This document shows, piece after piece, positions 16,924 to 64,000 of a stretch of DNA of 64,000 nucleotides. The DNA comes from Squalus acanthias (lineage: Eukaryota), in the NCBI GenBank assembly GCA_030390025.1, contig CM059434.1:110050001-110114000 (forward strand), in the 5' to 3' direction. The position numbers and the translations under genes are program-made. Below the pieces are notes generated by a model. The model did not search any database. It had not been told where the DNA came from and saw only the letters and a list, made by a program, of their open reading frames with translations. The stretch's first letter is position 1; each line of letters opens with the position of its first letter.

Positions 16924-17745
16924 GTAAGTCAGTTGTGTACTTTATATCTGCCATCCATGCCCTTTTCTTTCTAGCATTTTTGAACTGCCCACTATTGTAA
17001 ATGGCTAATTTTGTGTGTTTTCCACTAAAATATATGTGGTGTAAGTAAGGTCTGTAAAATTATTTTACAGCAAAGTTAAGAACCGGTTCTGGGGGAGGTG
17101 GGACCAGTACAAACTGGATGGTTTGCACCTGGGTAGGACCGGGACCGATGCCCTAGGGGGAGTTTTTGCTAGTGCTGTTGGGGAGGGTTTAAACTAAAAT
17201 GGCAGGGGGTTGGGGACCTGTGCAGGAAGACAGAGGAAAGGGAAGCAAGGATAGAAGCAAAAGACAGGAAGGAAAAAAGCAAAAGTGGAAGTCAGAGAAA
17301 TCAAGGGTGTAAATCAAACATGGCGACAGTAAACAATAATTATAAAAGGTCTAACAGTGTTTAAAAAAAACAAGCCTGAAGGCTTTGGGGGAAAAATTAG
17401 GTCGCGCCCCGTTTGGGGCGCAAATATCGTCTGGACGCAAATATTAGCGCCTGGCGCTAATTATCGCCACTGACTGGAAACTTCACTTTTACCGCCCCGG
17501 GAGGTGAGTGGAGCGCTAAATCAGGCGCTGCACACCTGTCTTAAGGCGCAAAGGCCGAGCAGTGAGGCGCTAACTCAGCGCGCGAGCGCAGCGCAGGTGC
17601 TGCCAGTTAGCGAGGGAACACAGACACACTGGCGCCGGCCAGTTCTTAAAGCGGGGGGGGCCAACTTGCTCCCCAGCCACACCCTGCTCATTGCAGCCTT
17701 GAATCTCGACCTGGAGAGACCTGTGAATCCATTTTGCTGCCAAGG

Positions 17746-19261
17746 ATGGAGAGGGTGAGAGAACGAGCTCAGCGCTTCACCGAGCGGGCCTTGGATGCTC
17801 TGGTTGGCGCGGTGGAGCGCAGAAGATGTATGCTCTTCCCTGAGAGTGGCAGGAGGCCTTTGCCACGCGAGTACAGAAGAGTGTGGAGGGAGGTGGCTCA
17901 GAGCGTCTCCTCCAGGAGCATGGTGCCCAGGACCCATGTTCAATGCCGCAAAAAGTTCAACAACCTCACTCGGGTCGTCAGGGTGAGTGGCTTTTTCTCA
18001 ATACCTCTCCATCCCTCCATCTCAACCTCACTCTATGGCCAGAGGGTCTTAAAACCCCAATGCACAACACTCGGTGATCGGTCCCGTCGCCACTGGAGAC
18101 GCCGACCCCGTTCTGGACAGCAATGGTAAGGTCATCACCTTTTTGTCCTCTGTCCTTCCACTTGTCCCTCACAACACCAGCCTTTGACACTTTCAATCCA
18201 ACTTGCTAACTCGCTGCACTTATTCCTCCCTTACTGCCACCCTGTCCTCACGCTAAAGCCACTCTTGTACCTCCCTGCTTTCAGATGGTGATTCACCAGC
18301 TGAGGAGACGGGCCTTGAAGCTGCCAGTGGGAGTGAAGCTGCAGCCGAGGAGGAAGAGGAAGCCGGAGCATCAGTGCCACCCTCTCCCGAGGAAGCCCAT
18401 GCCCACACTGGGAACACGCCTTCCCTGGAGGGGAGCAGGGGGGAAGGGTCTGATGAGGGTGAAGCTCCAGGACCCAGCGGGCTGCAGCAACGCCATGGGG
18501 GTAGGGAAGAACGGGGGCCTTCTCCCCAGAGGGAGAGTATGCCAGAGACTCCTACTGCAATGGACGCAGAGGAGGAGCGGCTGATTGCAGAAATGAACAC
18601 CCAGGTGGTGGGCATGCACACTGAGCTCATGGGTGCAGTGGGAAGGGTGCCCGAATGCATTGAGTCACTGGCAAGGAGTGTGGAGCACTTCGCTGTAGCA
18701 CAGGCGGATGCCACACTAAAGCTTAGTGCTGCAATTCAGTCACTGACTGCCGTGATCCCATCTCTGACTGCTCTCATGCAGACTCAGATTGAGGCCACGC
18801 GAGCACTGACTGCTGCCAACCTCGATGGTTCGTTCACATGTCCCCGGGGCGCTCACCGCACCGCAGCAGGCCAGCAATCTGTTCTCCAGCAGATTGCTCC
18901 GGATGCTGAAGTGCTGCCCCGTGGGAGTGCCAGTGTGTCGGGCGAGCAGGGAGTTGCTGTCCTCTCTCACGATGACAGCATTCCTGCTGCCAACACTGTC
19001 ACTTCTCCACTGCACTTGCCACCGCCTGTAGGACAGACTGCTGCCTCCCATGCAGAGTTGGTGCAGTCTGCAGCCGGGCCCTCCAGGCCCAGAACTGGTC
19101 GAGGCCGTCCTTCAGGGGCATCTGCAGTGTCAGGGTCTGACGATCAGCAGCCTTCCACCAGCCTTGCTGCAGCCACTGAGGTCCCATTACGGAGGAGCAG
19201 TAGGGTTAGAAGGGGGGAAGTGCGCAAGGGAAGGAGATCACCCTCGAAGGGCAAAAAGTAG
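17746..19261 (+). CDS. Harbinger Myb/SANT (trihelix) DNA-binding protein, spliced; middle exon appears damaged
   Basis: Exon 17746..17982 (RFTERALDALV...W.EVA......R...QCRKKFNNL, donor gtgagt); partial exon ending 18125 (gtaagg); last exon 18285..19261 with acidic, helical and basic (NLS-like) segments. Confidence 0.8.
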
Positions 19262-19571
19262 GAGGTGTGACAAAATGCTGGTCATTTTTTTATTAAAGGC
19301 CGAGGTTCGTGGTCCAACTTTTGTTTAGTGTTTTGGACATTATCTCCAGGTTGTGAGAACCAGTTATGTTACTGACTTTTTTTGTGTTTATTTCTATGAG
19401 TTTGTCATGAGGAAATGACACACACAGAGTTTGTAAAATAAATAAGTTTTTGTATTCAAAATATACATGTTTGGTGTTTGGAATTATTGGTGCCTTGCCC
19501 GGCTTAGGGGTTGCGTGCTGGGTTCATTGATGTTGTTAGCAATGGCAGAAGCCATTTCCACAGCAGGGGCC

Positions 19572-20730
19572 CTAGAAGCGGCTTGCTATCAGCCGTTGAC
19601 GGACAGCCCTTGCAGTTTCACCATTGTGGGCCGCCCTCCCGCCTTGGTGCTGCTGATGATCATCCTCCTCGTCCTCTTCCTCCTCTTCCTCCTCCTCCTC
19701 TGGTGGTGCTCTAAGGCCTGGTGGCATTGGCTGGGTCTTGACGATTGCCATGTTATGCAACATGCAGCACACAACTACGAAGTTGGATACTCGCTCAGGC
19801 GAGTACTGCAGGGCTCCTCCAGAATGGTCGAGACAGCGGAACCGTTGCTTGAGCACGCCGATTGTGCGCTCAATGATGTTCCTGGTAGCTTGATGGCTCT
19901 CATTGTACCGCAGCTCAGCAGGGGTGTTGGGCGTACGGAGCGGTGTCATCAGCCAGGTGCTCAATGGATACCCCTTGTCCCCGAGAAGCCAACCAACTGG
20001 CTGATGCGGTGCCTCAAAGTTCTGCCACAGTAGTCTGGCACAGGATAAAAGCATCGTGGCAGCTGCCAGGATAGTGGGCATTGACAGCGAGTATCAGCTG
20101 TCTGTGGTCACAGACCAACTGAACATTCAAGGAATGGAACCCCTTTCTGTTCCGGAATTCCTCGGCATTCTCATGTGGAGCACGCAAAGCCACATGCGTG
20201 CAGTCAATGGCGCCCTGCACCATGGGGAAGCCCGCTATCCTCGCAAAGCCCAGAGCGCGGTCACGCTGCTTGTCTGGGGTCATGAGGAAAGAGATGAACT
20301 CTCGTCTCCTTTTAAAGAGGGAATTTGTGACCTGCCGGATGCAGCAATGCACCGCGAACTGGGAGATATTGGCGAGGTCCCCAGCAGCAGCTTGAAATGA
20401 GCCAGTAGCATAGAAGTTGAGAGCCACTGTGACCTTCACTGCCACCGACAGAGACGTCCTGGACCTCAGTTGAGGCTGCAGATCTGGCTGCAGCAGGTGG
20501 CAGAGCTCAGTGACCACCTCCTTGCTGAATCGCAGCCTTCGCAAACACAGCTCCTCAGACATATGAATGTAGGAAAGCTGTTCGCGATATACCCTGGGAG
20601 GGTAAGCTCTCCTGTACATACGCCTGTTGACCCTCCTCCGTCTGGCCATCATTGCCACTCTCTCTCTGCGTCTCTGTGTCCTCCGATTCAGCTGGAGCAG
20701 GACGACGCCCCCAATCAGTGCAGCCCCCAT
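19572..20730 (-). pseudogene. Harbinger (HARBI1-like) DDE transposase with one frameshift near 20018
   Basis: ORFs 20014..20799 and 19572..20081: [56 protein letters not shown]. Confidence 0.9.
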
Positions 20731-20849
20731 AGTCTCTCTGCAAGCAAAGTAATGAAGGACAGCAACCAAAGTAGCAGCGAAGTTAGGATCAGTAGGCAAA
20801 ACTACCTCACAAAGCGTTGACTCAATGCAGAAGTCTCTCTTTCTCTCCG

Positions 20850-20851
<2 letters not shown>

Positions 20852-20879
<28 letters not shown>
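20852..20879 (+). repeat. (CT)n microsatellite inside the Harbinger
   Basis: Direct reading. Confidence 0.9.
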
Positions 20880-20880
<1 letters not shown>

Positions 20881-23800
20881 GAACGAGTGGTGCAAAAATG
20901 TCAACCATAGAAAAAGACAGGAAGAGGCCCCCTTTAAATAGCGCCCCCCCCAGCCCCACAGCGATTGATAGCGTTCCAGTCTTCCGGTCGTTTGATGCGC
21001 CAGGCGGTAAGGCAGGGGACGCCACTCAATTTCCGCTCCGGGGCGCCACAAGGGCGTTGCACCATGGAATGACGTCACAATCTGCGCGCGCAGGTGGTCG
21101 CGGCGGTAAGGTTTAGCGCCGCCGCACAATGTCTAGTTAAGTTCCCGAGCGGCGCAAACATCGCTGCGCCCGGGCGCTAGCGGCTTTGCGCCCCATTAGC
21201 GCCCTCTTAAGGCGCTAACGGGAGGCGCAACCAACTGAATTTTTACCCCTTTGTGTCTTAATGCAAGGAGCATTCGTAATAAGGTGGATGAATTAGCTGC
21301 GCAAATAGATGTAAATGGATATGATATAATTGGGATTACGGAGACATGGCTCCAGGGTGATCAAGGCTGGGAATTCAACATCCAGGGGTATTCAATATTC
21401 AGGAAGGACAGGCAAAAAGGAAAAGGAGGTAGGGTAGCATTGCTGGTTAAAGAGGAGATTAACACAATAGTAAGGAAGGATTTTAGCTCTGATGATGAGG
21501 AATCTGTATGGGTAAAGCTGAGAAATACCAAGGGGCAGAAAACGTTAGTGGGAGTTGCATACAGACCCCCAAACAGTAATGCTGAGGTTGGGGATGGCAT
21601 TAAACGGGAAATTAGAGACGCGTGCAATAAGGGCACAGCAGTTATCAAGGGTGACTTTAATCTACATATAGATTGGGCTAACCAAATTAGTAACAATACT
21701 GTGGAGGGGGAATTCCTCGAGTGTATACGGGATGGTTTCCTGGACCAATATGTCGAGGAACCAACTAGAGATCAGGCCATCTTAGACTGGGTATTATGTA
21801 ATGAGAAAGGATTAATTCGCAATCTTGTTGTGCGAGGCCCCTTGGGGAGGAGCGATCATAATATGATAGAATTCTTTAAGATGGAGAGTCAAGTAGTTGA
21901 CTCAGAGACTAGGGTCCTGAATTTAAATAAAGGAAACTACGATGGTATGAGGCGCGAGTTGGCTAGGATGGATTGGGGAATATTACTTAAAGGGTTGACG
22001 GTGGATAGGCAATGGCAAACATTTAAAGATTGCATGGATGAACTACAGAATTTGTTCATCCCTGTTTGGCATAAAAATAAAACAAAAAAGGTGACTCAAC
22101 TGTGGCTAACAAGGGAAATTAGGGATAGCATAAGATCCAAGGAGAGGACATATAAATTGGCCAGAAAAAGCAGCAAACCTGAGGATTGGGAGCAGTTTAG
22201 GATTCAGCAAAGGAGGACAAAGGGATTAATTAAGAAGAGGAAAATAGAGTATGAGAGTAAGCTTTCAGGGAACATAAAAACTGACTGTAAAAGCTTCTAT
22301 AGATATGTGAAGAGAAAAGGATTGGTGAAGTCAAGCGTAGGTCCCTTGCAGTCAGAATCAGGGGAATTTATAATGGGGAACAAAGAAATGGCAGACCAAT
22401 TAAATACATACTTTGGTTCTGTCTTCACAAAGGAGGACACAAATAACCTCCCAGAGATGTCGGGGAACATGGGGTCTAATGAGAGGGAGGAACTGAATGA
22501 AATCAGTATTTGTAGGGAAATGGTGTTAGGGAAATTGACGGGATTGAAGGCCGATAAATCCCCAGGGCCTGATAATCTACATCCTAGGGTACTTAAGGAA
22601 GTGGCCCTCGAAATAGTAGATGCATTGCTGGTCATCTTCCAAAATTCTATAGACTCTGGAACAGTTCCCATGGATTGGAGGGTAGCTAATGTAACCCCAC
22701 TATTTAAAAAAGGTGGTAGAGAGAAAACGGGGAATTATAGACCGGTAAGCCTGACATCAGTAGTGGGGAAAATGCTAGAGTCCATTATAAAAGATGTAAT
22801 AGCAGAGCCCTTGGAAAACAGTGACCGGATCGGACAAAGTCAACATGGATTTACAAAAGGTAAAAATCATGCTTGACTAATCTACTGGAATTTTTTGAGG
22901 ATGTAACTGGTAGAATAGATAAGGAAGAACCAGTGGATGTGGTGTATTTGGATTTTCAGAAGGCTTTCGATAAGGTCCCGCATAAGAGATTAGCGTGCAA
23001 AGTTAAAGCACATGGGATTGGGGGTAAGGTACTGACTTGGCTAGAGAACTGGTTGGCAGACAGGAAGCAAAGAGTTGGAATAAACTGGTCTTTTTCTGAG
23101 TGGCAGGCAGTGACTAGTGGGGTACCACAGGGATCGGTGCTAGGACCCCAGTTATTCACAATATATATTAATGATCTAGACGAGGGAACTAGATGTAATA
23201 TTTCCAAGTTTGCAGACAACACAAAGCTGGGTGGGCGTGTGTGCTGTGAGGAGGATGCAGAGAAACTCCAGTATGATTTGGACAGGTTGGGTGATTGGGC
23301 AGATGCATGGCAGATGCAGTATAATGTGGATAAATGCGAGGTTATCCACTTTGGTGTCAAAAACAGGAAGGCAGATTATTATCTGAACGGCAATAGATTG
23401 GGAAAAGGGGAAGTGCAACGAGACCTGGGTGTCCTTGTGCACCAGTCGCTGAAGGTAAGCATGCAGGTGCAGCAGGCGGTTAAGGCGGCAAATGGTATGT
23501 TGGCCTTCATAGCGAGAGGATTCGAGTACAGGAGCAAGGATGTCTTGCTGCAGTTGTACAGGGCCTTGGTGAGACCACACCTTGAGTATTGTGTGCAGTT
23601 TTGGTCGCCTTATCTGAGGAAGGATGCTCTTGCCATGGAGGGAGTGCAGCGAAGATTCACCAGACTGGTACCTGGGATGGCAGGAATGACGTATGAGAGA
23701 GATTGGGTCGATTAGGCTTATATTCGCTAGAGTTTAGAAGAATGAGAGGGGATCTCATTGAAACTTATAAAATTCTAACAGGACTAGACAGACTAGATGC

Positions 23801-24179
23801 AGGAAGGATGTTCCCGATGGCGGGGGAGTCTAGAACCAGGGGTCACAGTCTAAGGATAAGGGGTAAGCCATTTAGGACTGAGATGAGGAGGAATTTCTTC
23901 ACCCAGAGAGTGGTGAACCTGTGGAATTCTCTACCACAGAAGGCAGTTGAGGCCAATTCATTAAATATATTCAAGAAGGAGTTAGATATATTTCTTAAGG
24001 CTAAAGGGATCAAGGGATATGGGGAGAAAGCAGGGACAGGGTACTGAATTTGGATGATCAGCCAGGATCTCATTAAATGGCGGAGCAGGCTCGAGGGGCC
24101 GAATGGCCTACTCCTGCTCCTATCTTCTATGTAACAGTCTGTTACAGTGAGGGCTGTGGGGTATATCACTGTTACGGTG

Positions 24180-31123: not shown

Positions 31124-33555
31124 GGAAAAAGCTGGAGATGTAACAGATATTAAGCAGGTGCAGAGACAGGGGGGCGGGGGGGGTGATTTAGGAGGGGAGG
31201 AAGGAGTTGAAAGAACATACTGTGCTTATGTAAGAGGCAGGAAAGATAAAATGTTGCAAATTGGAATGGCAAAATCATACAGCATGAAAAATGGGGGCAG
31301 GGATTATTGCCTGAAATTGTTGAACTCGATGTTGAGTCCGGAAGGCTATAAAGTGCCTAATCGAAAGATGAGCTGCTGTTCCTCGAGCTTACGTTGAGCT
31401 TCATTGGAACAATGTAAGAGGCCGAGGACAGAGATCAGAGTGGGAGTGAAGCGGAGAATTAAAGTGACAGGCGACCGGAAGCTCCGGGTCACCCTTACGG
31501 ACTGAACGGAGGTGTTCCGCAAAGCGGTCACCCAATCTGCGTTTGGTCTCCCCAATGTAGAGGAGACCGCATCGTGAGCAGCGAATACAGTATATTAAAT
31601 TGCAAGAAGTACAAGTAAATCACTGTTTCACCTGGAAGGGGTGTTTGGGGCCCTGGACAGTGGGAAGGGAGGAGGTAAAAGGGCATGTGTTGCATCTCCT
31701 GCGCTTGCAAGGGAAGGTGCCAGGCGAAGGGGAAGGGCTGTTAGGGGTGATTGAGGAGTGGACCAGGGTGTCGCGGAGGGAGCGGTCCCTGCGGAATGCT
31801 GAAAGGGGAGGTGAGGGGAAGATGTGTTTGGTGGTGGGATCACGCTGGAGGTGGCGGAAATGGCGGAGGATTATCTGTTGAATGTGGAGGCTGGTGGGAT
31901 GACAGGTGAGGACAAGGGGAACCCTATCGTGGTTCTGGGAGGGAGGGGAAGGGGTGAGAGCAGAAGTGCGGGAAATGGAACGGACACGGTCAAGGGCCGT
32001 GTCAACCACAGTAGAGGGGAATTCTCAGTTGAGGAAAAAGGAAGACATGTCGGAAGCACTGGTATGGAAGGTGTCTGAAATAACAACAGAAAATGCTGGA
32101 AATACTCAGCAGGCCAGGCAGCATCCGTGGAGAGAGAAACAGAGTTATCTGAAATAACATAGCCCTAGCTATGCCTGCCTTTTTGTGGGATATGTGGAAC
32201 ATTCTTTGTTCCAGTCCTAATTGGGTCCCCTCCCTCACCTCATTTTCCGGTACATTCATGACTGTATCGGTGCTGTTTCCTGCTCTCTCCCTGAACTAGA
32301 AAATTTCATTCACTTTTTGCTTCCAATTTCCACCCTTCCCTCGCCTTCACATGATTCATCTCTGACTCTTCTCTTCCCTCCCTCGACTTCTCTGTCTCCA
32401 TTTCTGGGGATAGGCTATTGACAAACATTCACTGTAAGCCCACTGACTCCCACAGCTACCTGGACTACACTTCCTCCCACCCCGCTTCCTGTAAGGACTC
32501 TATTCCATTCTCCCAGTTTCTCTGTCTCCGTCGCATCTGCTCTGATGATAACCACCTTCCATACTAGTGCTTCCGCTATGTCTTCCTTTTTCCTTAACTG
32601 AGGAATCCCCTCTACCATGGTTGACATGGCCCTCGACCGTGTCCGTTCTATTTCCCGCACTTCTGCTCTCACCCCTTCCCCTCCCAGAACCACGATAGGG
32701 TTCCCCTTGTCCTCTCCTTTCACCCCACCAGCCTCCACATTCAACGTGCCATTTTCGCCACCTCCAGCGTGATCCCATCACCAAACACATCTTCCCCTCC
32801 CCTTTCAGCATTCCGAAGGGACCGCTTCCTCCGTGACACCCTGGTCCACTCCTCAATCACCCCCAACACCCTTTCCCACGGCACCTTCCCGTGCAAACGC
32901 AGGAGATGCAACACCTGCCCTTTTACCTCCACCCTTCCCACTGTCCAGGGCCCCAAACACTCCTTCCAGGTGATACAGCGATTTACTTGTATTTCTTGCA
33001 GTTTAGTATACTGTATCGCTGCTCACGATGTGGTCTCCTCTACATTGGGGAGACCAAATGCAGATTGGGTGACCGCTTTGCGGAACACCTCCGTTCAGTC
33101 CGTAAGCGTGACCCCGCGCTTCCGGTCGCCTGTCACTTTAATTCACCACTCCATTCCCACTCTGACCTCTCTGATCTCGGCCTCTTGCGCTGCTCCAGCG
33201 AAGCTCAATGTAAGCTCGAGGAACAGCACCTTCTCTTTCGATTAGGCACTTTACAGCCTTCTGGACTCAACATTGAGTTCAACACTTTCAGACCATAACC
33301 TCTGCCCCTATTTTGCTTCACGTGGCAGCTGTTGATGATTCTGCCATTCCCATTTACACCTCATCTAGACTCATCTTTTGTTTTTTAACTTGTCCCATTA
33401 CCATCTCCTTTTGCCTTGCACCATCACCCCTTCTGTCTTTTAATCTCTCCTGCCTTCCATCCTATCACAGACCTTCCCTTTTGTTCCTTCCTCCTCCCCC
33501 TCCTTTCCCTGCCTCTGCACCTGCTTAAAAATGTGTTGCATCTTTAACTTTTTCC

Positions 33556-33591
33556 AGTTCTGACGAAGGGTCATCGACCTGAAACGTTAAC
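33556..33591 (+). ncRNA. Minimal type I hammerhead ribozyme motif
   Basis: agtt-CTGACGA-ag-GGTC atc GACC-t-GAAAC-GTT-aac. Confidence 0.72.
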
Positions 33592-33895
33592 CGTGTTTCT
33601 CTCTCCACAGATGCTGCCTGACCACCTGAGTATTTCCAGCATTTTCTGTTGGTTGTAAATGTGTCGGGTTAAGGGAGGAGCAAACATAGGTTCTCGATCC
33701 TGTACAAATCTTAAATGTAATGTACCTTTTACGCGCTGCACGTCACCTGGGAGGAACTGTGTATATAATGCCTGTTGCACAAAAAGAGGATCACGATTGT
33801 CTTGTGAAATATGTTATAAATAGATGAGTAAATTTCATTTGTAATGTTCTGTGACTGTCTCCTCCATTTAACTACATTGTGTTGCCTTTTTTCAG

Positions 33896-34903: not shown

Positions 34904-34981
34904 GTACCCTGTCTGTGTGCTACAGCCATCCTGTACGAAATGAGCAGGAATTCACTTATTCGGTGATTCTTCTGCCTCATG
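34904..34981 (+). CDS. GSAP: GSAP exon (TLSVCYSHPVRNEQEFTYSVILLPH)
   Basis: ttgtag / gtaaat; 78 nt, phase 1 to 1. Confidence 0.9.
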
Positions 34982-35372
34982 GTAAATCTGGTTTCAATTT
35001 TTTTTACTGTAAATTTTTACCACCTAAAATTCTCCCTCCTTTTTGACTATACGGCACTCGGCCAGTCTTTTTCTTCGTTTTCGGGAGGGCAGGATAGACT
35101 GAGGCAGATTTTTATAAACACCAGCATAGCTGCTCTACTGTCGACCTGCAGGATGCCCCCTTAAAGCAAGGCCATCTGTTTCTCTTGCCTTAAAGTGGTA
35201 TTCCACCTGGAAAGCTGGTCTGAAACTGTCTCTCAATATTGGAGCATTCTGGTATTTGAAGCAATGGTCATCAAACTTGCAGGCAAGTGCTCTGTTGCCT
35301 TTGCTATTGATTGGGCTTTTCAACATGTTTAAAGGGATTGTAAACCAGTTACAGAACAGATAATTTTGGAAC

Positions 35373-35478
35373 AGATAGTTCTGACGAAGGGTCATCGACC
35401 TGAAACGTTAACTCTGTTTCTCTCTCCACAGATGTTGCCTGACCAGCTGAGTATTTCCAGCATTTTCTGTTTTTATTT
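35373..35478 (+). mobile_element. 106-bp PLE-derived insertion: hammerhead plus short tail, with a 16-bp TSD
   Basis: CAGATAATTTTGGAAC at 35357..35372 and 35479..35494; intact motif agtt-CTGACGA...GAAACGTT-aact at 35377..35413. Confidence 0.85.
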
Positions 35479-35540
35479 CAGATAATTTTGGAACTTTTTT
35501 TTCCCAAGTCAGGATTGACTAGTCTTGTTTAAAATATATA

Positions 35541-59321: not shown

Positions 59322-61921
59322 AAACATAGAAACATAGAAGATAGGAGCAGGAGTAGGCCATTCAGCCCCTCGAGCCTGCTCCGCCATTCAATGAGATCAT
59401 GGCTGATCATTCAAATTCAGTACCCTGTCCCTGCCTTCTCTCCATATCCCTTGATCCCTTTAGTTTTAAGAAATATATCTAACTCCTTCTTGAATATATT
59501 TAATGAATTGGCCTCTACTGCCTTCTGTGGTAGAGAATTCCACAGGTTCACCACTCTCTGGGTGAAGAAATTCCTCCTCATCTCAGTCCTAAATGGCTTA
59601 CCCCTTATCCTTAGACTGTGACCCCTGGTTCTGGACTCCCCGGCCATCGGGAACATCCTGCATCTAGTCTGTCTAGTCCTGTTAGAATTTTATAAGTTTC
59701 AATGAGATCCCCTCTCCTTCTTCTAAACTCCAGTGAGTATAAGCCCAATCGACCCAATCTCTCCTCATACGCCATTCCTGCCATCCCGGGTATCAGCCTG
59801 GTGAATCTTCGCTGCACTCCCTCCATGGCAAGAACATCCTTCCTCAGATAAGGCGACCAAAACTGCACACAATACTCAAGATGTGGTCTCACCAAGGCCC
59901 TGTACAACTGCAGCAAGACATCCTTGTTCCTGTACTCGAACCCTTTCGCTACGAAGGCCAACACACCATTTGCCTTCTTAACTGCCTGCTGCACCTGCAT
60001 GCTTACCTTCAGCGATTGGTGCACAAGGACACCCAGGTCTTGTTGCACTTCCCCTTCTCCCAATCTATTGCCATTCAGATAATAATCTGCCTTCCTGTTT
60101 TTGACACCAAAGTGGATAACATCGCATTTATCCACATTGGGCAGAAGCATGGCAGATGCAATATAATCACCCAACCTGTCCAAATCATACTGGAGTTTCT
60201 CGGCATCCTCCTCACGGCACACACTCCCACCCAGCTTTGTGTCGTCTGCAAACTTGGAGACATTACATCCAATTCCATCGTCCAGATCATTAATATATAT
60301 TGTGAATAGCTGGGGTCCTAGGACCGATCCCTGCGGTACCCCACTAGTCACCGCCTGCCACTCGGAAAAAGACCCATTTATTCCAACTCTTTGCTTTCTG
60401 TCTGCCAACCAGTTCTCTATCCAAGTCAATACCTTGCCCCCAATCCCATGTGCCTTAACTTTACACGCTAATCTCTTATGCGGGACCTTATCGAAAGCCT
60501 TCTGAAAGTCCAAATACACCACATCCACTGGTTCTCCCTTATCCATTTTACTAGTTACATCCTCAAAAAATTCCAGTAGATTAGTCAAGCACGATTTGCC
60601 TTTTGTAAATCCATGTTGACTTTGTCCGATCCTGTCACTGTTTTCCAAGTGCTCTGCTATTACATCTTTTATAATGGACTCTAGCATTTTCCCCACTACC
60701 GATGTCAGGCTTACTGGTCTATAATTCCCCGTTTTCTCTCTACCACCTTTTTTGAATAGTGGGGTAATATTAGCTACCCTCCAATCCATGGGTACTGTTC
60801 CAGAGTCTATAGAATTTTGGAAGATGACCAGCAATGCATCTACTATTTCTAGGGCCACTTCCTTAAGTACCCTAGGATGTAGATTATCAGGCCCTGGGGA
60901 TTTATCGGCCTTCAATCCCATCAATTTCCCTAACACCATTTCCCTGCAAATACTGATTTCTTTCAGTTCCTCCCTTTCATCAGACCCTATGTTCCCCGAC
61001 ATCTCTGGGAGGTTATTTGTGTCCTCCTTTGTGAAGACAGAACCAAAGTATGTATTTAATTGGTCTGCCATTTCTTTGTTCCCCATTATAAATTCCCCTG
61101 ATTCTGACTGCAAGGGACCTACGCTTGACTTCACCAATCTTTTTCTCTTCACATATCTATAAAAGCTTTTACAGTCAGTTTTTATGTTCCTCGCAAGCTT
61201 ACTCTCATACTCTATTTTCCCCCTCTTAATTAATCCCTTTGTCCTTCTTTGCTGAATCCTATACTGCTCCCAATCCTCAGGTTTTCTGCTTTTTCTGGCC
61301 AATTTATATGTCCTTTCCTTGGATCTTATGCTATCCCTAATTTCCTTTGTTAGCCACGGTTGAGTCACCTTTTTTGTTTTATTTTTATGCCAAACTGGGA
61401 TGAACAAATTCTGTAGTTCATTCATGCGATCTTTGAATGCTTGCCATTGCCTCTCCACCGTCAACCCTTTGAGTGACATTCCCCAATCCATCCTACCCAA
61501 CTCGCGCCTCATACCATCGTAGTTTCCTTTATTTAAATTCAGGACCCTAGTCTCTGAGTCAACTACTTCACTCTCCATCTTAATGAAGAATTCTATCATA
61601 TTATGATCACTCCGACCCAAGGGGCCTCGCACAACAAGATTGCTAATTAATCCTTTCTCATTACATAATACCCAGTCTAAGATGGCCTGATCTCTAGTTG
61701 GTTCCTCGACATATTGGTCCAGGAAACCATCCCGTATACACTCCAGGAATTCCTCCTCCACAGTATTGTTACTAATTTGGGTAGCCCAATCTATATGTAG
61801 ATTAAAGTCGCCCATGATAACTGCTGTGCTCTTATTGCATGCTTCTCTAATTTCCATTTTAATGCCATCCCCAACCTCCGTATTACTGTTTGGGGGTCTA
61901 TACACCACTCCCACTAGCGTT
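59322..61921 (-). mobile_element. Young CR1 (family A) with a 783-aa open ORF2 segment, inserted into an older CR1 (59200-59320 and 61922-62575)
   Basis: ORF 59611..61962 with APE C-terminal half and RT (FADDTK); frameshift near 59655; (TTCTATG)n tail. Confidence 0.93.
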
Positions 61922-64000
61922 TTCAATCTCAGTTTTGAAATTTTCAATTGACTTAACCTCAACAGCTTTTTTTGGGGTGGGGGGGAGGGGAAGAGTTCCA
62001 GATTTCCACTATCATTTGTGTGAAGAATTGCTTCCTGATGTCATGATGTCCTGAATGGCCTAGTTCTAATTTTAAGGTTATGCCCTCTTGTTCTGGACTC
62101 TACCACCAGAGGAAATTAGTTTATCTCTGTCTACCTTATCAATTCCTTTAATCATCTTCAAAACCTCAATTAGATTACCCCTTAATCTTCTATACTCAAG
62201 GGAATACAAGACTAATCTATGTAACCTTTCCTCATAATTTAACTCTTTTAGCCCACGTATCACTTCTGGTGAATCTGCGCTGCACCCATTCCAAGGTCGA
62301 TATATCCTTCCTGCGGTGCGATGCCCAGAACTGAACACACTACTCTAAATGGGGTCTAACCAGAGCTTTATATAACTGCACCAGAACTTCCATTTCTTTG
62401 TATTCCAGCCCTCCTGAGATAAAGGCCAATGTTCCATTAGCCTTTTGAATTATTTATTTGTACTTGTCCAATAGCTTTTAGTGACCCATAAATATCTCTG
62501 CTCCTCCGCAGTTCCTAGCTTCTTCCCATTTAAAAAAAATACTCTGATCTATCTTTCTTGGGTCCCAAGTGGACACTGAAGTGGATAGGGATGGCAGGAC
62601 GAGAGGTAATGCCTATAAAATCATATGCAGAGTTAGGTTTGATTTAAGCAAGTATGTCTTTTCACTGAGAATCCTTACTCTCTGGAACAAATTTCCACAA
62701 CATGAGGTAGAGGATAACTTTGGTCCTTTTTATAAAAAAAGAAATTGACAGGTTGCTGAGAAGAGATCATTGCTAGGAAAAGGGGTAACTAGCTAGTTTA
62801 GATTGTGATGTGACATGGGCAATCGTGGTATGGAGGTTGCTTGATTGCCTTAGGTGGTCGGTGAGGAATTTCCTGAATTGGCCATTGCCTCTACTGAGAC
62901 CACCTTGCTTGGGTGTGGGTGATTGGGGTTTGAGGTTACGGTCCGTTGCATGGGCAGTTTCATGGACCTCATGGTTTTTTTTTTTTTACACCTTTTTTGA
63001 TTTTGTATGTTTAATCCTCCCGCATCATGTAGTAGCAGCTTTACTTCTCCAATCATCAGACAGGGTTTGGGTGCTGCATCCCTCCATTGCTTGATCACAG
63101 ATTCAGTTTCCTGACTCCACCTTTCTTTTATAATCCACTGGATTTGGCCAGCAACTCCTTTTTGCTCCACACACTCTTCAGTCAGTCAACCAAAAATTAT
63201 TGATCCCACATTGCCTTTAAATGCCAGCTGCAACCCTTATAGAGCTAATGCGATGGATATTCCACCTCCTCCATTTGGTGAGCTTCCAGTGTGGAGTTTA
63301 GGCCAGGCCAGAAGCTTGCTGTGTATATGCAATGAGGGCTGGCTTTGGAAGATCTGATGGGGTTGGCTGTGCGATGATTGTGCAGTTGCAAAACCCACGG
63401 TACACCAATCTTAATGAAAAATTGCAGGATCATAAAACTTGTGTTCATGTCATTACGTTGAATAATTTTGTGATAAATTGTCCTTTCTTTTAGCTTGAAT
63501 GCATCCGGCAGATTGCAGATAGGATATGGAAAAAATACGGCCTCGACACCCACATCCTGTGCTTGTAAGTGATGGTCATTTTAAAGCAGAACAATTTGTA
63601 GCACCAAATGTGGCACATTATCAAGTGAAGACTAAGAATATTCATTTTATTTATAGTAAAAATTCGGAGAAAACTAACAGTTGGCTATTAAAATTGTAGG
63701 TCAAGTTTTTTATATAATAGTTATAATATTCTAACGTTTTTTAAAAAGTGGAATTTGAAACTTGAGATGCTAAAATGGAAATGTGTACGTAGGTATGCAG
63801 ACGATCGAGAATATGTGTGTGTCAGATAGGGATAGTAGAAGCTTCCTCCGGTGGCTCCTGTTCCACTAAAACCACATGTGAAGGAAGGCAGTCTTTTGGG
63901 AGCAGAAGATAACCACTAAGGGCTCACTTTCATTTTGTTTGTAGGAATGTTAATTTAAAACAAACTTTATTAAAAAAAAAAGTACCCAGAACAGATCTAA

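What the first reader, a model, noticed from the sequence alone, without database searches (positions are those of the whole stretch)
35357..35494. Hammerhead-only mini-insertion with a perfect 16-bp target duplication
Seen: a 106-bp insert flanked by identical CAGATAATTTTGGAAC repeats. It consists almost entirely of an intact minimal hammerhead (AGTT-CUGACGA-stem II-GAAAC-GUU-AACU) plus about 65 nt of tail, and the PLE-matching part starts at the 5' strand of helix I. Known: PLE pLTRs carry minimal type I hammerheads. Inference: this is either an extreme 5' truncation or a tiny non-autonomous ribozyme-bearing retroelement (retrozyme-like). It is in sense orientation within a GSAP intron, so the pre-mRNA carries the ribozyme.
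Basis: partly seen in the sequence, partly recalled or inferred. Interest (0 to 1): 0.7.

Follow-up and report, generated by a model that had tools for sequence, protein, structure and literature searches.

The report
Penelope run-off stub marking RNA start
This tiny insertion is a real stub of an abundant Penelope-type jumping gene, one of many copies that begin at the same few bases, likely because copying ran off the capped start of the element's own messenger RNA while its small ribozyme was still uncut.

Summary
The insert is bases +1 to +102 (+1 = A of AGTTCTGA, window 35377) of the pLTR/ORF start of an abundant Neptune-type Penelope-like element (PLE). Intact 3.2-kb units exist; their 971-aa ORF starts at an ATG inside the hammerhead core.

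The 5' boundary is not random: 29 of 124 copies sampled without regard to 5' end start at -3..+3, 14 times the upstream rate. There is no peak at the cleavage site (4 copies at +31..+38). Short copies form no lineage of their own and no tandem arrays were found, so neither random truncation nor a retrozyme fits.

Best reading (0.7): internally primed reverse transcription ran off the capped 5' end of uncleaved sense RNA. Support: a TATA-like motif at -30, an Inr-like CCAGTTC, and G before +1 in 25 of 36 cases (a cap signature), with no spliced junctions. No RNA start was measured.

The insertion is shared with two related species. A lone copy cannot close stem III.

The parts
35357..35372 (+). 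5' copy of the 16-bp target-site duplication
   Evidence: one substitution at 35362 in organism C
35373..35376 (+). 4-nt filler (5 nt if A35377 is included) repeating target bases 15 nt upstream; end-joining scar (inferred)
   Evidence: direct-repeat family D4; similar fillers at other junctions
35377..35413 (+). Minimal type I hammerhead of the PLE pLTR: helix I 4 bp, core CUGACGA, unpaired A, stem II 5 bp with G.U at 10.1-11.1, palindromic ACGU stem III without loop; predicted cut after 35409 (GUU); 35377 is the inferred transcription start
   Evidence: sequence; architecture as in PMC4209133; boundary peak
35384..35478 (+). First ~32 codons of the PLE ORF (ACG here where the young intact subfamily has ATG)
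   Evidence: frame open for 971 aa from +8 in L466 and L467; the insert translates in the same frame
35479..35494 (+). 3' copy of the duplication; its first 5 nt are also element +103..+107 (microhomology at the first of two 3'-end clusters)
32553..33651 (+). Longer 5'-truncated copy of the same PLE (endonuclease end, pLTR, hammerhead at 33556), same strand, 1.8 kb upstream
34904..34981 (+). Candidate host exon (AG/GT-bounded) upstream of the insert, probably GSAP
   Evidence: GSAP-16 exon on the + strand 4 kb beyond the window; assignment of this exon recalled

Best explanation
The insert is the first 102 bases of a Penelope-like element's pLTR/ORF start, and it is likely a complete run-off copy of the 5' end of the element's capped, uncleaved sense RNA. 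SHOWN: the parent is an RT + GIY-YIG element with 3.2-kb pLTR-ORF-pLTR units; copy 5' ends pile up at -3..+3 and 3' ends at about +100-106 and +135-140; copies cross the cleavage site; G is in excess before +1. INFERRED: (1) Pol II starts at +1 from a TATA-like motif at -30 and an Inr-like CCAGTTC, so the hammerhead occupies the first 37 nt of the mRNA and the start codon (+8) lies in its core. (2) The element's protein nicks target DNA and primes inside the RNA at either of two sites, as shown in vitro for Anolis Poseidon. (3) That priming signal occurs twice in a unit-plus transcript. Priming on the downstream pLTR gives long copies that carry the promoter; priming on the cap-proximal copy runs off after 100-140 nt, sometimes copying the cap as an extra G. 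(4) The cDNA end is joined by microhomology or filler to the target (giving a TSD) or to a second cDNA from the other strand (giving a fold-back). The stubs lack the TATA motif and are probably dead ends. In GSAP the copy is likely a neutral intronic passenger.
For: Parent: Pfam RVT_1 E 3.8e-5 and GIY-YIG E 3.7e-4, both under the curated cut-off; 971-aa ORF from +8 in 2 of 2 full units fetched. Peak: 29 of 97 copies at risk end at -3..+3, i.e. 0.050 per nt, against 0.0036 (-60..-4), 0.0063 (+4..+30) and 0.0041 (+31..+38) (the window was chosen after looking). Genome-wide: 1,432 of 8,465 exact 26-mer copies have non-T at both -5 and -4. Hand tally of the 100 listed: +5: 8, +4: 16, +3: 4, +2: 28, +1: 18, -1: 9, -2: 12, -3: 5. 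Cap signature: the base before +1 is G in 25 of 36 non-C cases against 0.287 expected (p 5e-7); no such excess before +2 (33 of 100, p 0.35). In 8 ends the G is explained by neither the target nor the inverted arm, including both arms of L413 (read by eye). Untemplated G is the accepted cap mark for L1 and SVA (PMC4859970). A TTAAA-like motif lies at -29..-31 in 42 of 44 long copies and keeps its place between two subfamilies without gaps. 3' ends are bimodal, 51 and 59 of 124, matching two RT start sites (PMC11167929).
Against: No RNA 5' end was measured; only contigs were available. The mode is +2, not +1, and 21 of 100 extend to -1 or -2, so the start must be heterogeneous or the ends trimmed. 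About two thirds of the G cases are ambiguous (G shared with the target or inverted arm, or no TSD visible), and an RT habit of adding C could mimic a cap. The window's own copy has T, not G, before +1. The TATA-like motif is not canonical, and its conservation among related copies is weak evidence. In D. virilis Penelope the start lies 46 nt upstream of a 75-nt intron (PMC2377424) whose 3' end maps to helix I (PMC4209133), so there this position is a splice acceptor.
Confidence: 0.7

Rival explanations
1. The boundary is set during integration: the RT stalls at a protein-bound or folded hammerhead on a longer RNA, or the endonuclease trims the intermediate at a fixed site beside helix I.
For: The edge coincides with the 5' strand of helix I. 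The mode at +2 and the spread to -2 fit a stall or trim as well as a start site. In vitro the Anolis protein interacts with the hammerhead RNA (PMC11167929).
Against: It does not predict G excess specifically before +1 (25 of 36). An RT moving 3' to 5' on RNA has already unwound the ribozyme when it reaches +1. The TATA/Inr-like spacing would be a coincidence.
Confidence: 0.14
2. The boundary is a 3' splice acceptor (pyrimidine tract, CAG|TTCTGA), as in D. virilis Penelope, and the stubs derive from spliced RNA.
For: A pyrimidine tract and CAG precede TTCTGA, with CTAAC in part of the copies. Precedent in PMC4209133. RNA-guessed contigs show loose ends before +3 in 2 of 4 runs (11 and 6 contigs), which is weak.
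Against: Only 4 of 100 start at +3. None of 104 peak-region copies has an upstream pLTR exon joined (3 are contiguous long copies; the other hits are inverted arms). There is no GTRAG donor in 300 nt upstream in the three copies listed. CTAAC is absent in the young subfamily. TSDs usually abut the start within a few bases, so no exon was copied. No GT..AG joint ending at +3 appears among the joints listed.
Confidence: 0.08
3. A discrete non-autonomous, retrozyme- or SINE-like family of about 105-140 bp amplifies from its own master copies.
For: Sharp 5' end, two fixed 3' ends, TSDs of 9 or more matches in 9 of 28 stubs against 3 of 150 shuffled flank pairs. Contig joints that go back 100-106 nt occur in all 4 DNA runs.
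Against: No diagnostic column (best nominal p 0.018 among 125) and no clustering (146 of 1000 shuffles). The head-to-tail pattern gave 2 hits, one locus, and the one read is not a dimer. The two adjacent pairs fetched were head-to-head. The hammerhead core is intact in only 9 of 28 stubs against 29 of 52 long copies.
Confidence: 0.06
4. An ordinary random 5' truncation that happened to stop at helix I.
For: 5' truncation is the rule for PLEs, and other stops are spread along the element.
Against: The rate at -3..+3 is 14-fold the upstream rate.
Confidence: 0.02

Closest known systems
EN+ Penelope-like elements, Neptune type (PMC8557442, passages read; PMC3846280, passages read)
   Same: RT followed by GIY-YIG with a Cys linker (C-x4-C-xx-C); pLTRs in partial tandem; optional 30-40 nt tail; inverted 5' arms (36 of 104 peak-region copies); pLTR overlapping the ORF start; TATA/Inr-like motifs noted in the A. 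vaga pLTR.
   Different: The passages read describe no preferred 5' end of short copies and no cap signature. PMC3846280 favours an antisense template; the G before +1 points to a capped sense template.
Poseidon_Ac of Anolis (PMC11167929; main text read, parts 1-2 of 4)
   Same: Two internal RT start sites near the ORF start give the tail; uncleaved RNA is the template; the ORF starts within the hammerhead; no reads end at the cut.
   Different: That work is in vitro with chosen template ends and does not treat 5' ends of genomic copies. It reports initiation without homology, whereas short microhomology is common at 3' junctions here (not tested against chance).
Minimal hammerheads of metazoan PLEs (PMC4209133; parts 1-2 of 4 read)
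   Same: Short helix I, unpaired base before stem II, palindromic loopless helix III, mostly dispersed single motifs; the monomer tested there was inactive.
   Different: Pair 10.1-11.1 is G.U or A-U here, not G-C. That paper ascribes single motifs to truncation and proposes cleavage and circularisation; no ends at the cut site are seen here.
Non-LTR retrozymes (bioRxiv 10.64898/2026.07.22.740005; parts 1-3 of 5 read)
   Same: Short, non-coding in effect, pLTR-derived, carrying a type I hammerhead.
   Different: Retrozymes are defined there by tandem units, each with a hammerhead. This is a TSD-flanked monomer with no own lineage and no arrays found.
Full-length L1/SVA insertions with untemplated 5' G (PMC4859970, passages read)
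   Same: An extra G at a fixed 5' end, read as a copied cap.
   Different: There the complete copy is kilobases long and primed at the 3' poly(A); here priming is internal and the complete product is 100-140 nt.

Membership tests
EN+ Penelope-like element (parent) | Single ORF with RT and C-terminal GIY-YIG | tested here: met
   971-aa ORF; Pfam RVT_1 and GIY-YIG hits below the curated cut-offs
EN+ Penelope-like element (parent) | pLTRs from partial tandems, optional 30-40 nt tail, inverted 5' arms | tested here: met
Neptune clade | Zn-finger-like Cys linker between RT and EN | tested here: met
   C-x4-C-xx-C motif in the ORFs; definition in PMC8557442
Neptune clade | Placement in an RT phylogeny | not tested
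   No reference set was fetched and no tree was built
Minimal type I hammerhead | Core CUGANGA / GAAA, helix I and II, NUH triplet, palindromic helix III | tested here: met
   sequence; no Rfam hit
Minimal type I hammerhead | Conserved G10.1-C11.1 pair | tested here: not met
   G.U here, A-U in other copies
Minimal type I hammerhead | Self-cleavage as a dimer | not testable with these tools
   needs an in vitro assay
Non-LTR retrozyme | Head-to-tail tandem units, each with a hammerhead | tested here: not met
   monomer here; pattern search gave 2 hits, one locus, not a dimer; rare go-back joints in contigs. The pattern was strict and may miss diverged dimers
Non-LTR retrozyme | Circular or multimeric RNA | not testable with these tools
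   only contigs were available
Discrete non-autonomous (SINE-like) family | Fixed ends | tested here: met
Discrete non-autonomous (SINE-like) family | Own lineage with diagnostic bases | tested here: not met
   28 stubs against 52 long copies

The most novel reading that the evidence does not exclude
Tens of thousands of such stubs are a fossil 5'-RACE of a vertebrate Penelope element. They show a capped, uncleaved sense mRNA whose first 37 bases are the hammerhead and whose start codon sits in the catalytic core. Cleavage after +33 would remove both cap and AUG and needs two copies of the motif, so the ribozyme would be a dose-dependent off-switch for the element's own mRNA rather than a maker of replication templates.
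Probability: 0.22. Interest if true: 0.75.

Novelty: new variant of a known kind. Interest (0 to 1): 0.43.

Why it matters
The single insertion is an ordinary dead PLE stub. The class it belongs to bears on three open points in the papers read: whether the PLE template is sense or antisense (left open in PMC3846280), what the hammerhead does (dispensable in vitro, PMC11167929), and whether internal priming operates in vivo. If the reading holds, the stubs give the transcription start, show the template is capped and uncut, and explain how solo hammerheads become abundant without a retrozyme cycle. Each point can be tested with CAGE and the existing in vitro system.

Tried and rejected
Rfam scan of the window: one irrelevant hit, E 0.72. 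Pfam on three window ORF fragments: 0 of 3.

The first genome search was biased toward T before +1 by the query and was not used for the histogram.

Ends at the cleavage site: 4 of 124 at +31..+38. A targeted pattern gave 2,418 hits; at most 3 of the 100 listed could start at +34, and 0 of 30 loci read did.

Spliced copies: none in 104. Tandem dimers: not found.

Empty site: none seen. B and C carry the insert. One organism-A contig stops at 35361 with 31 letters unplaced, which is inconclusive, and 44 joints were not shown.

RNA: no holder is listed as RNA; guessed-RNA contigs cannot show starts.

Folding: the lowest-energy fold pairs the core with the stem III strand (-17.4 kcal/mol) against -14.4 for the open-core fold with flank-extended helix I; not taken as evidence on activity. 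The energy for the hand-built structure was mis-paired and is discarded.

Rows dropped before counting, 10 of 134: six stubs carried inside another repeat (L105, L106, L112, L115, L116, L120), two duplicates (L196, L197) and two second arms of fold-backs (L177, L189).

Orientation of the 8 copies in the window is 4 plus and 4 minus, too few to judge selection.

Literature searches listed no paper on a start-site peak or cap G in PLE copies. The library is incomplete and no supplements were read; those of PMC11167929 (Fig. S2, genomic ends) may bear on novelty.

Full report
Numbering: +1 is the A of AGTTCTGA (window 35377); the predicted hammerhead cut is after +33.

OBSERVATION. The two 16-mers are identical and enclose 106 nt. 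The insert is 4 nt of filler plus element +1..+102. The first five bases of the right-hand repeat are also element +103..+107. The filler repeats target bases 15 nt upstream (D4) and may include the +1 A. All core hammerhead bases are present. Stem III is the loopless palindrome ACGU, which cannot close in one molecule; PMC4209133 (parts 1-2 of 4 read) found a comparable monomer inactive and dimers weakly active. Rfam has no hit. A GSAP-16 exon lies on the + strand 4 kb past the window and a candidate exon 375 nt upstream of the insert, so the sense-intronic setting is likely. Contigs of organisms B and C, whose flanks differ at 15-16 letters in about 560, run into the insert from both sides. 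The insertion is therefore older than that split, and no empty site was seen.

PARENT. Seven more copies lie in the window. Thirty matches of 40 nt or more in 600 kb of arbitrarily chosen blocks extrapolate to about 186,000 genome-wide (125,000-265,000); one exact 35-mer has 14,409 hits. Long copies encode RT and GIY-YIG with a Cys linker typical of Neptune (PMC8557442, passages); no tree was built. Two full units, L466 and L467, are 3.2-kb pLTR-ORF-pLTR elements with a 971-aa ORF starting at the ATG at +8, inside CUGAUGA. The insert is thus the ORF's first ~32 codons, with ACG in place of ATG.

BOUNDARIES. I took 134 copies found by exact patterns lying downstream of +45 (44 of 175 hits; 90 of 14,409 hits; the first listed places) and extended each against real long copies. 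After dropping 10, 29 of 124 start at -3..+3. The rate is 0.050 per nt there, against 0.0036 upstream, 0.0063 at +4..+30 and 0.0041 at +31..+38 (nominal p below 1e-17, window chosen after looking). The sample favours young copies. Genome-wide, 1,432 of 8,465 exact copies of +5..+30 have non-T at both -5 and -4 (17%; up to about a third after allowing for flanks that carry T), while 4 of the first 30 loci were such stubs. Scaling 23% gives very roughly 40,000 stubs. A hand tally of the 100 listed peaks at +2 (28) and +1 (18), with -1 (9), -2 (12), -3 (5), +3 (4), +4 (16) and +5 (8). 3' ends are bimodal: 51 at +97..+110 and 59 at +131..+148. This is the PLE tail, which PMC11167929 (main text read) traces to two internal RT start sites.

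WHAT SETS THE 5' END. Cleavage does not: the copies cross the cut, and no peak lies there. Splicing is unlikely: +3 is rare, none of 104 peak-region copies carries an upstream pLTR exon, and no consensus donor was seen. The D. virilis intron does end at this position (its start site is 46 nt upstream of the intron, PMC2377424, passages). A transcription start fits best. A TTAAA-like motif lies at -29..-31 in 42 of 44 long copies, at the same place in two subfamilies, and CCAGTTC matches the initiator consensus (recalled). PMC3846280 (passages) notes TATA and Inr motifs in a rotifer pLTR. Among the 100 listed of 877 copies, the base before +1 is C 64, G 25, A 8 and T 3; G is 25 of 36 non-C against 0.287 expected (p 5e-7), with no excess before +2 (33 of 100). 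Reading all 25 G cases (24 independent, as L422 and L423 are duplicates), 8 have a G that neither target nor inverted arm supplies, among them both arms of fold-back L413; the rest are ambiguous. Untemplated G is the accepted cap mark for L1 and SVA (PMC4859970, passages). Against this: no RNA start was measured, the mode is +2, a fifth of the stubs reach -1 or -2, and this copy has no G.

NOT A FAMILY. Stubs and long copies are equally distant (0.073, 0.073, 0.072; 146 of 1000 shuffles), with no diagnostic column. The insert's nearest sampled relatives are one stub (1%) and several long copies (2%). TSDs occur in 9 of 28 stubs (3 of 150 in shuffled pairs), and 36 of 104 have an inverted 5' arm. 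Head-to-tail dimers, which define non-LTR retrozymes in bioRxiv 10.64898/2026.07.22.740005 (parts 1-3 of 5 read), were not found in the assembly, though rare go-back joints appear in contigs.

MECHANISM (inferred). The priming signal lies 100-140 nt from the cap and again in the downstream pLTR. Priming downstream copies the promoter and ORF and gives long, variably truncated insertions. Priming near the cap runs off at once and gives the stubs, joined by microhomology or filler, or head-to-head with a second cDNA. The stubs lack the TATA motif and are probably terminal. Odds: start-site run-off 0.70, stall or trimming 0.14, splice acceptor 0.08, discrete family 0.06, chance 0.02.

EARLIER NOTES. 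I recorded the start-site reading, before seeing that other agents had reached it on other shark DNA. These are unchecked notes, not support. Two of them suggest ends at the cut site, which prompted. In this genome that signal is absent, and the GUU triplet is instead a frequent target of GC-rich inverted-repeat elements, which could mimic it.

VERDICT. A real feature and a known kind of element, with a regularity not found in the eight literature searches run. It makes the template question testable but lacks RNA evidence. Interest 0.43.

Noticed in passing
L437-L463; 2,418 pattern hits: GC-rich elements with terminal inverted repeats (about 750-860 bp where both ends were seen) insert precisely at the hammerhead's GUU triplet (+31..+33) and duplicate those 3 bases: 21 of 30 loci read, 8 with the upstream half of the ribozyme visible. 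PIF/Harbinger-MITE-like by recall. This strong site preference could be mistaken for '5' ends at the cleavage site'.
   Followed up: partly
L466:2400-5599 (minus strand of the fetched stretch) and L467:2227-5427: Two intact full-length PLE units with 971-aa ORFs; copies 98-99% identical over 2 kb suggest recent activity of this subfamily.
   Followed up: partly
window 33556-33592 and 35377-35413: Two same-strand hammerheads with intact cores lie 1.8 kb apart on either side of the candidate exon at 34904-34981; in nascent RNA they could in principle form a double hammerhead. Untested.
   Followed up: no
window 35440-35481: In sense orientation the insert offers a branch-point-like CTGAC, a pyrimidine tract and CAG, i.e. 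a possible cryptic 3' splice site in the host intron.
   Followed up: no
window 35368-35374 with 35414-35420: Target plus filler bases can extend helix I by 7 bp at this site, probably by chance.
   Followed up: partly
L105, L106, L112, L115, L116, L120: A PLE fold-back stub carried inside another dispersed repeat and spread with it.
   Followed up: no
window 17650-20877: ORFs resembling a Harbinger transposase and its Myb/SANT-like partner (names recalled, not searched).
   Followed up: no
window 21239-24132 and 59332-62040: Near full-length CR1-type LINE ORF2 copies, 94% identical and in opposite orientation (family name recalled).
   Followed up: no
window 35302 and 35361 (run X1): One organism-A contig has a 12-nt insertion at 35302 and stops at 35361 with 31 unplaced letters; a variant allele at the insertion site is possible.
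   Followed up: no
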